From a phage: a stretch of 64,000 nt of DNA. The notes beneath the pieces were generated by a model. The model was not told where the DNA came from and did not search any database. It was given only the letters and a program-made list of their open reading frames with translations. Position 1 is the first letter of the stretch. Each line of letters opens with the position of its first letter. Below, piece by piece: positions 13,301-33,768 of the stretch. The stretch is from the sequence record PX880103.1; one strand, given 5' to 3'. A program made the position numbers and the translations under genes.

Positions 13301-15007
13301 TTATGGATAGGTATAGATCATACCAGTTTCTAAAGCAGTTTTGTGAATGATGTATCCATTACGCGATTCTTGGACATCAACTTCTGGATAGTCTTTCATC
13401 ATTTTCTGAAGAGTGTAACGATGCAGGTAGTATTTACTATCTGGATCTTCAGTTTTCCAATCTTTACCTTCTTCAGTCATTTTTTGGATTTCATCCATAA
13501 CCCACCAACCGCACCAGATGTAAGCTGAAGTACGATGTGGAAGAGGATGAACATAAGGTAATTCACCTTCTGGTTCCGGAGCAACTTTATCAGTTACCTG
13601 GACTTGACCTTCTGCTGTAATAGTTTTGCTATCATAGTCAACTGCAGTAACGACGGCAGTCACTTCAATAGTTTGACTTCCAACAGATGAAGTATCAACG
13701 GTATATACATTAGTTGATCCTTCTACTGGAGAAGAATCTTTCTTCCATGAATATTCAATTTGCGCTTCTTCTGGAGCATCAGTGACATTAGCAGTAAATG
13801 TAGCCGAAGCATCTTGTTGAACGTTAATAGAAGGAGGAGTCAATGTAACCTGTGGATTCATTGTCTTCTTATTAACCGTTAATGATACTTCATTAGAAGT
13901 AACTGTTTTTGCGTCATAATCCGTTGCTGTTACTTGGGCTACGCATTTAATTTTTTTAACTCCAACTGCAGTAGGAGTATAGTTAAATGTAGCGGAAGTT
14001 GCTTCACTAATTTGTGAATCATCTACATACCACTGATACGTAGCAGATGCTCCATCAGGTTGAGAAGCTAAAGCGGCGGTAAATTCAACAGCTGTTCCAA
14101 TTACTCCGGCACCAGGATTAGCAGGAGTTACAGCTAGGGTAGTCGTTTGTGTTTTCTTGTTAACAGTCAAAGATACTTCATTCGAAGTAACTTCCTTTTC
14201 ATTGTAATTTTCTGCAGTTACTTGAGCTACGCATTTAATTATTTTTACTCCACTTGTAGTTGGAGTGTAATTGAACGTAGCATTAGTTTCTCCAATAACT
14301 TGAGAACCGTCAACATACCATTTATATGTAGCAGATGCTCCAACGGGTTGAGAAGCTAAGGCAGCAGTAAATTGAACTGGGGTTCCGATTACTCCCGCTG
14401 GAGGACTATCAGGAGTTACTGCCAAAGTAGTTGTCTGCTCCTTTTTATTAACAGTCAGTGATACTTCATTCGAAGTAACGCTTAGTGCATCATAATCTGT
14501 CGCAGTTACTTGAGCCACACACTTAATTCTTTTTACGCCGCTTTCGGCAGGAGTGTAATTGAATGTAGCAGAAGTTGCTTCGCCCACAGGAGAATCATCT
14601 ACATACCATTGATAAGTAGCGTTTGCGCCCGATGGCTGCGAAGCTAAAGCGGCTGTAAATTGAACAGCTGTTCCAATTACTCCAGCGTCAGGGCTATTAG
14701 GAGTTACAGCTAAGGTGGTCGTTTGTGTCTTATTTTGAACTGTGATAGTTGTAGTAGCTTCTGCTGTTTCAGCTTCAGCTTCTGGAACTGTATTTGTTGC
14801 AACTACTTTAATAGTCTTTTGACCGGCAGGCCCCTTTAATACATAATTAAAAGTTGCTTCAGCTCCATCTTGTGGAACATTATCTACGCTCCAAGCATAT
14901 GTAATAGTTCCACCTTCAGTTTGACCACTGGGTGCAGCAGTAAACTGCTTGGTTTCATCAATAACCCCTGTCGGTGTTTTAGGAGTTATATCAACTGTAA
15001 AAGTCAT
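13301..15007 (-). CDS. hoc: Hoc outer capsid decoration protein, expanded to five Ig-like modules
   Basis: 568 aa; N- and C-termini match my recollection of T4 Hoc (376 aa); three ~96-aa near-identical tandem Ig-like repeats plus two diverged ones. Confidence 0.9.
   Translation of the reverse strand: MTFTVDITPKTPTGVIDETKQFTAAPSGQTEGGTITYAWSVDNVPQDGAEATFNYVLKGPAGQKTIKVVATNTVPEAEAETAEATTTITVQNKTQTTTLAVTPNSPDAGVIGTAVQFTAALASQPSGANATYQWYVDDSPVGEATSATFNYTPAESGVKRIKCVAQVTATDYDALSVTSNEVSLTVNKKEQTTTLAVTPDSPPAGVIGTPVQFTAALASQPVGASATYKWYVDGSQVIGETNATFNYTPTTSGVKIIKCVAQVTAENYNEKEVTSNEVSLTVNKKTQTTTLAVTPANPGAGVIGTAVEFTAALASQPDGASATYQWYVDDSQISEATSATFNYTPTAVGVKKIKCVAQVTATDYDAKTVTSNEVSLTVNKKTMNPQVTLTPPSINVQQDASATFTANVTDAPEEAQIEYSWKKDSSPVEGSTNVYTVDTSSVGSQTIEVTAVVTAVDYDSKTITAEGQVQVTDKVAPEPEGELPYVHPLPHRTSAYIWCGWWVMDEIQKMTEEGKDWKTEDPDSKYYLHRYTLQKMMKDYPEVDVQESRNGYIIHKTALETGMIYTYP
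13858..14722. repeat. three diverged tandem ~288-bp repeats encoding Ig-like modules within hoc
   Basis: Protein repeats 2-4 are ~80-90% identical; the DNA copies are clearly related but diverged. Confidence 0.75.
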
Positions 15008-32639: not shown

Positions 32640-32905
32640 TGTTCATCCTTTAGAGTTTGGTTTACAGCTCTATTATAAATCAATTCATCATTAAGCTCAG
32701 TCAAAGACCTATGGTACGTGGTTCTAACTTTATTTCCTTGCATCCAATGCTTGACGTAAATGAAACCTTGCTCTACACATTTTTTAAAAATTCGTTCGTC
32801 TTTTTGAGCTCGGAATTCTGGATTGCATCTAAAAAATTGATTTACGTGACCATAATCACGTGTAGTATTACCTTCATTTTCATAAATAGTGTGAACGACA
32901 AACAT
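32636..32905 (-). CDS. hypothetical protein (30.1 position)
   Basis: 89-aa ORF, translationally coupled. Confidence 0.6.
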   Translation of the reverse strand: MFVVHTIYENEGNTTRDYGHVNQFFRCNPEFRAQKDERIFKKCVEQGFIYVKHWMQGNKVRTTYHRSLTELNDELIYNRAVNQTLKDEQ

Positions 32906-33768
32906 TAGAATGCTCCTTGGAAAATATTATCACCACTAGTAATTCTATTAAAATACCCTGCGTCGCCAGGCTTAATATAACTCCACGTATGGAATGGATT
33001 CATATGATATAGATGTGTATAATATGGATTATATGGATGTGTATAATATGGATGATATGGATTTAATCCAGGAGTTCTCCATGTAGTATTTTGGCGAAAA
33101 GAATCGTTTTTAACCATCTTCTCAATTACATCTTTTATAGCTTTTTCACTATCAAAACTTTCTTTATTTTCCTTCGGCGAAAAAAGCTTATTTTCTACAT
33201 CATTCCATGTATAAACTCGCTGAGCAGTTTTTGGAATATTGTCACGCTCTCCTCGAGCCATCCAATAAACTGGAACATTTAATATTTCACTCGCATGATC
33301 GCAGTGGTGAGCGAGATCGTCAATATAACAAATTACGTTATATTTCTCTTTTGCCTTTTTGAACAACTCTTCTTTTGAAGAATCATGACCACACATCATT
33401 ACTTCTGAGAAGGCACCAGGAAAAAGAGCATTCAAATTAAATTGACGATTCAACAGAGCGTCAATAGAATCACCCAATGCTGTAACAGCTACAAAATTAT
33501 AATCTTCTTTTAATTTGTTAATTACACACAGGGCATCTTTATATGGAGACAAGTAACGAATAAAATCCGAACGATTGTATTTTTCAATTAACTTGACGCC
33601 AAGTTCTTCATCACAGTTAAAGAGTTTACCAGGAGAAATAAATTTCTCATCCTGGATCATTTTTAAAATATGTTCTAACGGAAGATTATATTTCTGAGCA
33701 AAATAAGGAAGGCCTGATTGCCAGCTTAAACATACTCCATCAATATCAGTTAAAATAGTAGGCTTCAT
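32905..33768 (-). CDS. HAD-superfamily hydrolase-like protein with Tyr/His/Pro-rich repeat tail (30.2 position)
   Basis: 287 aa; N-terminal ILTDIDGV (HAD motif I); C-terminal NPYHPYYTHPYNPYYTHLY encoded by a 2-copy direct DNA repeat. Confidence 0.7.
   Translation of the reverse strand: MKPTILTDIDGVCLSWQSGLPYFAQKYNLPLEHILKMIQDEKFISPGKLFNCDEELGVKLIEKYNRSDFIRYLSPYKDALCVINKLKEDYNFVAVTALGDSIDALLNRQFNLNALFPGAFSEVMMCGHDSSKEELFKKAKEKYNVICYIDDLAHHCDHASEILNVPVYWMARGERDNIPKTAQRVYTWNDVENKLFSPKENKESFDSEKAIKDVIEKMVKNDSFRQNTTWRTPGLNPYHPYYTHPYNPYYTHLYHMNPFHTWSYIKPGDAGYFNRITSGDNIFQGAF
32979..33024. repeat. two-copy tandem direct repeat (~24 bp) inside the 3' end of the HAD-like gene
   Basis: GATGTGTATAATATGGATTATA TG GATGTGTATAATATGGATGATA; encodes the Y/H/P-rich C-terminal tail. 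Confidence 0.7.

What the first reader, a model, noticed from the sequence alone, without database searches (positions are those of the whole stretch)
32905..33768. HAD-like hydrolase with a Tyr/His/Pro-rich repeat tail encoded by a tandem DNA repeat
The N-terminus carries HAD motif I (ILTDIDGV), suggesting a phosphatase or nucleotidase. The C-terminus is a low-complexity NPYHPYYTHPYNPYYTH tail encoded by a two-copy ~24-bp direct repeat (32979-33024), which is prone to slippage and copy-number change. Such tails can mediate metal binding or phase separation.
Basis: seen in the sequence. Interest (0 to 1): 0.4.

Follow-up and report, generated by a model that had tools for sequence, protein, structure and literature searches.

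The report
T4 gene 30.2 phosphatase, slippery tail
This is the T4-type phage gene 30.2: a well-conserved HAD-family phosphatase, most like 5'(3')-deoxyribonucleotidases, with a disordered Tyr/His/Pro-rich tail whose length changes between related phages by in-frame repeat slippage; it is a real but ordinary feature whose substrate is untested.

Summary
The ORF (32905-33768, minus strand, 287 aa) is real. It is the orthologue of phage T4 gene 30.2, flanked by 30.3, 30.1 and DNA ligase.

**Tandem repeat.** The repeat exists, but at 33004-33062 (24-bp period, 2.5 copies, 91% match), not at 32979-33024 as reported.

**Tail.** Residues 196-287 are a short helix followed by a predicted disordered aromatic/Pro/His-rich segment.
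- Among 14 Tequatrovirus alleles the protein is 274-287 aa.
- Every length difference lies in the tail and is in frame.
- The differences are built from 9-bp N/H-P-Y units and the 24-bp unit.
- dN/dS is 0.29 in the tail against 0.03 in the domain.

Nothing here supports metal binding or phase separation. Some public records already annotate the gene as a putative phosphatase. Interest is low to moderate.

The parts
32905..33768 (-). Gene 30.2 orthologue, 287 aa. Its start ATG overlaps the stop of 30.3 (ATGA), and its stop overlaps the ATG of 30.1 (TAATG).
   Evidence: PHROG_420 at E 4e-89. 98.6% nucleotide identity to Escherichia phage AV121. Neighbours are PF08010 Phage_30_3 and PF11243 DUF3045.
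33184..33768 (-). HAD-fold catalytic domain with helical C1-type cap, aa 1-195.
33733..33747 (-). HAD motif I, D8-I-D10-G-V12: the nucleophile Asp and the Asp+2 general acid/base.
   Evidence: D8 and D10 are invariant in A1 (66 sequences) and in A2 (73 distant sequences).
33481..33483 (-). HAD motif II, T96, at the end of strand VAVTA.
   Evidence: Nearly invariant (at least 90%) in A1. Strand E91-96 in the model.
33373..33375 (-). HAD motif III, K132.
   Evidence: Invariant in A1. At least 90% conserved in A2.
33316..33321 (-). HAD motif IV, D150-D151 (YIDDL), the Mg2+ ligands.
   Evidence: Both invariant in A1. D151 invariant in A2.
33109..33150 (-). Linker helix of the tail, aa 207-220 (EKAIKDVIEKMVKN).
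   Evidence: Helix H207-220 in the model; pLDDT averages 89 over aa 211-220 and 63 over aa 201-210. Helix plus tail architecture recurs across genera.
32977..33096 (-). Aromatic/Pro/His-rich low-complexity segment, aa 225-264, predicted disordered.
   Evidence: pLDDT below 50 from about aa 242. dN/dS 0.24. All length polymorphism among relatives except one 12-bp deletion, one 3-bp and one 6-bp event maps here.
33004..33062 (-). Tandem DNA repeat, period 24 bp, 2.5 copies; full units at 33037-33060 and 33013-33036. It is nested in 9-bp (A/C)ATCCATAT units that encode N/H-P-Y.
   Evidence: (TRF score 104). F25 lacks exactly one 24-bp unit.
32938..32967 (-). Degenerate form (GDAGYFNRIT, aa 268-277) of the C-terminal motif. 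The motif reads GGIEYLYNRPT in T4-type alleles and G(T)GIEYLxxQPT in Klebsiella and Enterobacter T4-like phages.
32913..32918 (-). AAGGAG Shine-Dalgarno of gene 30.1, lying inside the last codons of 30.2 (Q-G-A), 7 nt before the 30.1 ATG.
   Evidence: Read directly from the sequence. The final 30 nt before the stop are nearly invariant in 14 alleles.

Best explanation
This is the orthologue of bacteriophage T4 gene 30.2. It lies in the ligase-proximal operon 30.3-30.2-30.1-30 and is translationally coupled to both neighbours.

Residues 1-195 form a Mg2+-dependent HAD-superfamily phosphomonoesterase. By analogy with the family, Asp8 would form the aspartyl-phosphate intermediate and Asp10 would act as acid/base. 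Thr96 and Lys132 would hold the phosphate, and Asp150/Asp151 would hold Mg2+. A four-helix cap inserted straight after motif I would select the substrate. The family is a divergent branch of the NT5C 5'(3')-deoxyribonucleotidase lineage, so the most likely substrate class is a (deoxy)nucleoside monophosphate or a similar small phospho-nucleoside.

Residues 196-287 are an appendage, not a domain. They comprise one amphipathic helix, a disordered Trp/Tyr/His/Pro-rich spacer and a short terminal motif. The spacer DNA is made of 9-bp and 24-bp direct repeats. These expand and contract by replication slippage or unequal recombination, and only in-frame products survive. The window carries a long allele with a duplicated 24-bp unit.

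Shown here: gene identity, fold, motif conservation, repeat polymorphism, and purifying selection on both parts. Inferred: catalysis, substrate class, disorder, and any role for the tail. The tail is most plausibly a flexible tether carrying a short linear interaction motif.
For: Identity and synteny:
- PHROG_420 at E 4e-89.
- Neighbours are Phage_30_3 and DUF3045, plus ligase and alt.
- 621 phage records match at 80-99% nucleotide identity. Some label the gene 30.2 or 'URF X, 32.4 kDa protein in Gp30-rIII intergenic region'.

Fold:
- pLDDT is about 97 over aa 1-195.
- Foldseek PDB hits are all HAD enzymes. TM-score to target is 0.71 for deoxyribonucleotidase-like 3bwv and 0.65-0.68 for human and mouse cdN/mdN.
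- Viral structural neighbours are often annotated as 5' nucleotidases.

Motifs: D8, D10, K132, D150 and D151 are invariant and T96 is at least 90% conserved in 66 homologues. D8, D10 and D151 are still invariant at 21-46% identity.

NT5C link:
- The family profile finds 1321 cluster representatives.
- 21 of 73 distant members hit PF06941.
- P0166, P0176 and P0236 exceed its gathering score over the full model.
- The best PDB sequence hit of the profile is mouse cdN, aligning DxDGVxxxW-x-SGL with DGVLADFESGL.

Tail:
- pLDDT is below 50 in this protein and in a Klebsiella-phage orthologue.
- There are nine length classes (274-287 aa) among 14 alleles, and all indels are multiples of 3.
- dN/dS is 0.29 in the tail against 0.03 in the domain.
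Against: - The window protein itself hits no Pfam or NCBIfam model, even at E 1-10. The profile-to-cdN sequence match is only E 0.068.
- A general dNMP phosphatase looks counter-productive for a T4-type phage, which recycles host dNMPs (my own knowledge of T4 nucleotide metabolism). The real substrate may be something more specific.
- No paper on gp30.2 was found.
- Low pLDDT is not proof of disorder.
- About a third of family representatives, and most distant ones, lack any tail. The tail is therefore dispensable for the core activity.
Confidence: 0.75

Rival explanations
1. The tail is a functional tether. The Trp/Tyr/His/Pro spacer presents a short linear motif, G(T)GIEYLxxQPT, to a partner protein. 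That partner could be a replication or dNTP-synthesis complex component, a host protein, or the product of neighbouring gene 30.1. Repeat slippage would then tune spacer length, and the window allele (GDAGYFNRIT) would have changed or lost that contact.
For: - The motif is conserved from T4-type Tequatrovirus to Klebsiella, Enterobacter and Citrobacter T4-like phages, while the rest of the tail is barely alignable. 17 of 100 cluster representatives carry it.
- The tail is under purifying selection, with dN/dS 0.29 and every indel in frame.
- AlphaFold does not dock the motif on its own HAD domain, in either this protein or P0037. This is compatible with binding in trans.
- The same 11-12-residue string occurs in two unrelated small-protein families from phage-like contigs.
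- One metagenomic protein fuses the HAD domain to DUF3045, the 30.1 domain, in place of the tail.
Against: - No partner is identified.
- The matches outside 30.2 have E-values of 1-8 and were found by exact-word seeding.
- A strict back-translated pattern finds only 7 T4-like contigs in IMG/VR.
- Many Tequatrovirus alleles, including this window, have a diverged motif, and many orthologues have no tail at all.
- Conservation of the last codons is explained at least in part by the 30.1 ribosome-binding site.
- The fusion is a single short contig.
Confidence: 0.2
2. The tail is essentially neutral. It is a low-complexity extension generated and remodelled by slippage. It would be kept in frame only because translation must reach the end of the ORF for coupling to 30.1, whose Shine-Dalgarno and start codon overlap the 30.2 terminus. 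It would have no metal-binding, condensate or interaction role.
For: - The AAGGAG of 30.1 lies in the last codons of 30.2, and the stop and start overlap as TAATG.
- Tail sequences differ wholly between genera, and roughly 36 of 100 representatives lack a tail.
- The tail's dN/dS is ten times that of the domain.
- The tail is predicted disordered.
Against: - dN/dS of 0.24-0.42 still shows amino-acid-level constraint.
- The helix / W-x-x-P-G / aromatic-Pro / terminal-motif architecture recurs across genera.
- Translational coupling could be kept with a much shorter ORF, as in the tail-less orthologues.
Confidence: 0.3
3. One reading: the His/Tyr/Pro repeat is a metal-binding or phase-separating module whose copy number is functionally tuned.
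For: - The segment is rich in His, Tyr and Pro.
- It is predicted disordered.
- It varies in copy number.
Against: - No tool result bears on metal binding or condensation.
- T4-type alleles keep only NPYNPYHPYQTHPFQTW, and KIT06 keeps even less.
- More distant orthologues replace His/Tyr by Trp/Pro, so no His spacing pattern is conserved.
- There is no Pfam hit.
Confidence: 0.05
4. The HAD domain is not a nucleotidase. It would be a phosphatase for another substrate, such as a sugar phosphate, a nucleic-acid 3'-phosphate end as in T4 Pnkp, or a defence-related signalling nucleotide. It could also be a non-phosphatase HAD enzyme.
For: - There is a weak PHROG_415 polynucleotide-kinase match at E 1e-3.
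- The gene sits next to DNA ligase.
Against: - The Asp+2 residue (D10) is typical of phosphatases rather than dehalogenases (established HAD enzymology).
- Pfam hits among distant family members are led by NT5C, with 21 against 12 for HAD_2 and 1 for HAD_PNKP.
- Pnkp's phosphatase domain lacks a C1 cap, whereas this protein has a four-helix cap.
Confidence: 0.25

Closest known systems
Bacteriophage T4 ORF 30.2 ('URF X', uncharacterized 32.4 kDa protein in the gp30-rIII region; PHROG_420)
   Same: Orthologue. It has the same position between 30.3 and 30.1/DNA ligase and the same HAD domain: tblastn gives 88% amino-acid identity over the whole protein to a T4-derived record, and nearly all the differences lie in the tail. 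The tail architecture and C-terminal ...SGDNIFQGAF are also shared.
   Different: The window allele is 287 aa against 278 aa. It carries a duplicated 24-bp unit (PYYTH(P)YN), RQ instead of PW before NTTW, and GDAGYFNRIT in place of GGIEYLYNRPT.
NT5C family (Pfam PF06941): cytosolic and mitochondrial 5'(3')-deoxyribonucleotidases cdN/mdN and bacterial deoxyribonucleotidase-like proteins (PDB 2jao, 4yih, 4mum, 3bwv)
   Different: The window protein itself does not hit PF06941. Sequence identity to solved members is 14-21%. It has a 90-residue disordered tail that solved NT5C enzymes lack. Activity is untested.
Bacteriophage T5 Dmp (deoxynucleoside-5'-monophosphatase)
   Same: A phage-encoded early enzyme with a DxDGT motif I that dephosphorylates dNMPs. 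It is a functional precedent for a phage nucleotidase (annotation in NC_005859).
   Different: There is no detectable relationship beyond motif I: hhalign probability is 1.3%, and Dmp has no Pfam hit. T5 discards host nucleotides whereas T4-type phages reuse them (my own knowledge).
T4 polynucleotide kinase/3'-phosphatase (Pnkp, pseT), phosphatase domain
   Different: No kinase domain. 30.2 has a C1 cap that Pnkp lacks. The similarity is at superfamily level only.

Membership tests
HAD superfamily (phosphatase type) | Motif I DxDx(T/V) at the end of strand 1 | tested here: met
   D8-I-D10-G-V12. D8 and D10 are invariant in 66 and in 73 homologues.
HAD superfamily (phosphatase type) | Motif II Ser/Thr at the end of strand 2 | tested here: met
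   T96 in VAVTALG, at least 90% conserved with Ser in some members. Strand E91-96 in the model.
HAD superfamily (phosphatase type) | Motif III conserved Lys | tested here: met
   K132 is invariant in A1 and at least 90% conserved in A2.
HAD superfamily (phosphatase type) | Motif IV acidic pair (DD) binding Mg2+ | tested here: met
   D150-D151 (YIDDL) are invariant in A1, and D151 is invariant in A2.
HAD superfamily (phosphatase type) | Rossmann-like alpha/beta core with a cap module | tested here: met
HAD superfamily (phosphatase type) | Mg2+-dependent phosphoryl transfer through an aspartyl-phosphate intermediate | not testable with these tools
   Needs an enzyme assay with D8N and D10N controls.
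NT5C / 5'(3')-deoxyribonucleotidase (PF06941) | Scores above the Pfam gathering threshold for PF06941 | tested here: not met
   No Pfam hit for the window protein even at E<=1. However, family members P0166, P0176 and P0236 pass with 32.8, 33.8 and 25.7 bits against the 24.8 cut-off. They match the 30.2 profile at E 4e-26 to 1e-19. The link is therefore transitive only.
NT5C / 5'(3')-deoxyribonucleotidase (PF06941) | Fold closest to solved cdN/mdN-type enzymes | tested here: inconclusive
NT5C / 5'(3')-deoxyribonucleotidase (PF06941) | Base-stacking aromatic residue shortly after motif I (Phe in cdN/mdN, from memory of the mdN structures) | tested here: inconclusive
   W16 is invariant and aligns with the Phe of DGVLADFESGL in mouse cdN, but that alignment has E 0.068.
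NT5C / 5'(3')-deoxyribonucleotidase (PF06941) | Hydrolysis of 5'- or 3'-(deoxy)nucleoside monophosphates | not testable with these tools
   Needs substrate profiling.
T4 gp30.2 family (PHROG_420) | Profile match and conserved position between 30.3 and 30.1/ligase | tested here: met
   PHROG_420 at E 4e-89 over aa 1-276. Neighbours are PF08010 and PF11243. The same order is seen in AV121, F25, DalCa, AR1 and others.
T4 Pnkp-type 3'-phosphatase | Fused polynucleotide kinase domain and cap-less HAD phosphatase | tested here: not met
   No kinase domain and a four-helix cap is present. Only a weak partial PHROG_415 match at E 1e-3.
T5 Dmp-type dNMP phosphatase | Detectable homology to T5 Dmp | tested here: not met
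   hhalign probability 1.3%, with 36 columns aligned around motif I only.

The most novel reading that the evidence does not exclude
The disordered tail of gp30.2 is a length-tunable tether. It would end in a portable short linear motif, G(T)GIEYLxxQPT, that unrelated small phage proteins also use. The motif would recruit an NT5C-type nucleotidase to a specific phage or host complex. Tequatrovirus populations would carry two allele classes, motif-bearing and motif-diverged like this window, together with slippage-driven spacer lengths. On this reading, where or when the enzyme acts would differ between alleles.
Probability: 0.12. Interest if true: 0.5.

Novelty: new member of a known kind. Interest (0 to 1): 0.22.

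Why it matters
Gene 30.2 is conserved across the T4-like phages: 1440 phage records carry a relative, reaching Aeromonas, Acinetobacter and Vibrio phages. Its catalytic residues are invariant, yet no paper on it was found in the library searched.

Placing it as an NT5C-like phosphatase gives a concrete assay to run: a nucleotide monophosphate panel with D8N and D10N controls. It also raises a modest biological question. A phage that recycles host dNMPs seems an odd place for a nucleotidase.

The tail is a clean natural example of in-frame repeat slippage in a phage protein. It is a convenient strain-typing polymorphism. Nothing suggests it is more than that.

Tried and rejected
- **Direct family scans.** Pfam and NCBIfam gave nothing for the window protein. 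A single-sequence search of PDB sequences gave only a chance hit.
- **Literature.** Four searches (30.2/30.3/30.1 numbers, 'gp30.2', T4 + rIII + ligase, UniProt-style names) found no relevant paper. The only candidate matched a DOI string. The T4 genome review is not held.
- **T5 Dmp as a relative.** Rejected: hhalign probability 1.3%.
- **Tail as an independent, widespread module.**
  - A tail-profile search returned only fragments of 30.2 plus four small proteins sharing the terminal motif, at non-significant E-values.
  - A back-translated motif scan of IMG/VR found only 7 T4-like contigs.
- **Intramolecular docking of the motif.** A second AlphaFold run on Klebsiella-phage orthologue P0037, restricted to tail-bearing sequences, still gave pLDDT 40-50 for the tail.
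- **RNA-level explanation of the repeat.** No Rfam hit, and the fold z-score was 0.22.
- **Promoter or terminator signal.** The counts found did not exceed the shuffled expectation.
- **Counting the two-copy allele by BLAST of the repeat alone.** This failed because of low-complexity masking. From, about 82 of 500 matching records are at least 90% identical over the tail, which is only a rough proxy for the long allele.
- **C-terminal extension of Yersinia-phage orthologue P0067 as a DUF3045 fusion.** No similarity found.

Full report
**1. What is there**

The minus strand of 32905-33768 holds a 287-codon ORF. Its ATG overlaps the stop of the upstream ORF (ATGA). Its stop overlaps the ATG of the downstream ORF (TAATG). 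An AAGGAG Shine-Dalgarno for the downstream gene lies inside its last codons at 32913-32918.

The upstream ORF is Pfam Phage_30_3 (E 3e-69) and the downstream one is DUF3045 (E 3e-64). Next come a 487-aa DNA ligase and a 698-aa Alt-like protein, and a 111-aa gp31-like ORF lies upstream. These three identifications are my reading of the translations and of the T4 gene order, not family searches run here. This is the T4 gene order 31 ... 30.3-30.2-30.1-30-alt, so the ORF is the orthologue of T4 gene 30.2.

- It matches PHROG_420 ('unknown function') at E 4e-89.
- It is 98.6% identical at the DNA level to Escherichia phage AV121.
- 621 phage records match at 80-99% nucleotide identity.
- Public records call it 30.2, 'putative 32.4 kDa protein ... 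URF X', 'putative phosphatase', 'HAD-like hydrolase domain-containing protein' or '5' nucleotidase'.

**2. The observation**

The N-terminal ILTDIDGV and the tail string NPYHPYYTHPYNPYYTH (aa 236-252) are both present.

Tandem Repeats Finder reports a 24-bp period with 2.5 copies, 91% match and score 104, at 33004-33062. The two full units (33037-33060 and 33013-33036) differ at one base. Only one other array in the whole window reaches score 60, so the repeat is not background noise.

**3. The N-terminal domain**

AlphaFold2, run with a 66-sequence alignment, gives pLDDT of about 97 for residues 1-195.

| Search | Result |
|---|---|
| Foldseek vs PDB | 108 hits at E<=1e-3; the 50 listed are HAD enzymes or engineered proteins built on HAD scaffolds |
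| Foldseek, TM-score to target | 0.71 for deoxyribonucleotidase-like 3bwv; 0.65-0.68 for mammalian cdN/mdN |

The four HAD motifs are all present and conserved:

| Motif | Residues | Conservation |
|---|---|---|
| I | D8, D10 | invariant in 66 homologues; invariant in 73 relatives at 21-46% identity |
| II | T96 | at least 90% |
| III | K132 | invariant |
| IV | D150, D151 | invariant; D151 also invariant in the distant set |

**4. Which HAD family**

The protein itself hits nothing in Pfam or NCBIfam.

- A full HMMER scan with the family profile finds 1321 50%-identity cluster representatives at E<=1e-3. Most are 190-225 aa, that is, domain only.
- Of 73 distant members scanned, 21 hit PF06941 (NT5C), 12 hit HAD_2 and 10 hit Hydrolase.
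- Three members (P0166, P0176, P0236) exceed the NT5C gathering score over the full model. They match the 30.2 profile at E 4e-26 to 1e-19.
- The profile's best PDB sequence hit is mouse cdN (E 0.068). The alignment puts DxDGVxxxW-Q-SGL on DGVLADF-E-SGL.

I conclude that gp30.2 belongs to a divergent branch of the NT5C lineage. Homology is supported transitively. Direct membership of PF06941 was tested and not met. The fold comparison cannot separate NT5C from other C1-cap HAD enzymes.

T5 Dmp, the classic phage dNMP phosphatase, is not detectably related beyond motif I.

**5. The tail**

Residues 196-287 comprise a helix (207-220; pLDDT averages 89 over aa 211-220) followed by a segment with pLDDT below 50.

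I fetched 13 Tequatrovirus orthologues and aligned proteins and DNA.

- ORF lengths are 274, 276, 278, 279, 280, 281, 284, 286 and 287 aa.
- The HAD domain is collinear in all of them. Every length difference lies in the tail and is a multiple of 3 nt.
- The indels are:
  - gains and losses of (A/C)ATCCATAT units (N/H-P-Y);
  - the 24-bp unit, with two copies in the window, AV121 and Pu-Krd-SF2, and exactly one fewer in F25;
  - a 6-bp TAGTGG (Ser-Gly) duplication;
  - a 6-bp AATCCA-type insertion;
  - a 12-bp deletion in the helix (a48).
- With at least eight distinct events all in frame, chance preservation of the frame is about (1/3)^8.
- Nei-Gojobori dN/dS is 0.03 for the domain and 0.29 for the tail. 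By segment it is 0.28 for the helix, 0.24 for the low-complexity part and 0.42 for the C-terminus.

The tail is therefore translated and constrained, but far less so than the enzyme.

**6. Tail beyond Tequatrovirus**

Of 100 cluster representatives, about 36 have no tail. The rest carry 40-130-residue extensions of several types, all rich in Trp/Tyr/Phe/His/Pro (20-30% of residues).

Seventeen end in a strikingly conserved G(T)GIEYLxxQPT, preceded by W-x-x-P-G-like elements. T4-type alleles have GGIEYLYNRPT. The window allele, like T2 and DalCa, has GDAGYFNRIT.

- AlphaFold does not place this motif on the HAD domain, either here or in the Klebsiella-phage orthologue P0037.
- A tail-only profile search found, besides 30.2 fragments, two unrelated small-protein families with the same motif (P0246, P0247 and P0249; and P0248). 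One sits in a phage-like 22-kb contig. Their E-values are 1-8.
- A strict DNA pattern found only seven T4-like contigs in IMG/VR.

I treat a trans-acting linear motif as a hypothesis, not a finding.

Part of the invariance of the last residues (...QGAF) is explained by the embedded ribosome-binding site of 30.1.

**7. Other layers checked**

- There is no Rfam match.
- The repeat RNA folds no better than shuffles, z = 0.22.
- Promoter- and terminator-like sites are not enriched.

**8. Mechanism, committed**

The most likely reading is an early or middle phage enzyme that hydrolyses a nucleoside-monophosphate-like phosphomonoester by the standard HAD two-step mechanism. It would carry a flexible C-terminal appendage whose length drifts by slippage.

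| Claim | Confidence |
|---|---|
| It is a catalytically competent HAD phosphatase | about 0.85 |
| The substrate is a (deoxy)nucleotide | about 0.5 |
| The tail is functionally important beyond being tolerated | about 0.3 |

Metal binding and phase separation are unsupported.

**9. Novelty and score**

The gene is a long-catalogued T4 ORF. Its HAD nature is already noted in some database annotations. The window copy is an ordinary allele.

This analysis adds:
- the NT5C link through intermediate sequences;
- the demonstration that all four motifs are invariant;
- a description of the in-frame slippage hotspot and of the two C-terminal allele classes.

Interest is low to moderate (0.22).

Noticed in passing
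window 13301-15007 (-), repeat 13862-14728: A 568-aa Hoc-like ORF contains a 288-bp x 3.0 tandem repeat (75% match), giving several near-identical Ig-like modules. This is more than I recall for the 376-aa T4 Hoc, so it looks like a domain-number variant of the capsid decoration protein.
   Followed up: partly
P0246, P0247, P0249 (L015:5763-6188) and P0248 (L016:643-888): The motif GTGIEYLxxQP(T/A/C) conserved at the end of 30.2 tails also occurs in two unrelated small-protein families. One is a Cys-rich 96-141-aa family in a phage-like 22-kb contig, and the other is an 81-aa protein carrying it at its C-terminus. E-values are 1-8, so this is suggestive only.
   Followed up: partly
L026:234-1142 (protein P0013): A metagenomic ORF fuses the 30.2 HAD domain to a DUF3045 domain (the 30.1 family; E 8e-15) in place of the tail. 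This could hint at a functional link between 30.2 and 30.1, or it could be an assembly or frameshift artefact on a 1.4-kb contig.
   Followed up: partly
L001 (OL964745.1, 'Mutant Escherichia phage T4 clone T4_7t1'): In this record 30.2 is split into three annotated ORFs by two 2-nt deletions relative to T4_ev151, with 96% identity overall. Either 30.2 is dispensable in that laboratory lineage or the record has sequencing errors.
   Followed up: partly
window 32903-32918 and 33765-33768: Genes 30.3, 30.2 and 30.1 are chained by overlapping stop and start codons (ATGA, TAATG). The AAGGAG ribosome-binding site of 30.1 is encoded by the Q-G-A codons of 30.2, which constrains the C-terminal residues at the DNA level.
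   Followed up: yes
window 32938-32967 versus L004, L007, L010-L014: Tequatrovirus carries two allele classes of the 30.2 C-terminus, GGIEYLYNRPT and GDAGYFNR(I/L)T(SG). They combine with different repeat-region variants: F25 has the window-like LNPYHPYYTHPYH start but the T4-type end. This indicates recombination within the tail.
   Followed up: partly
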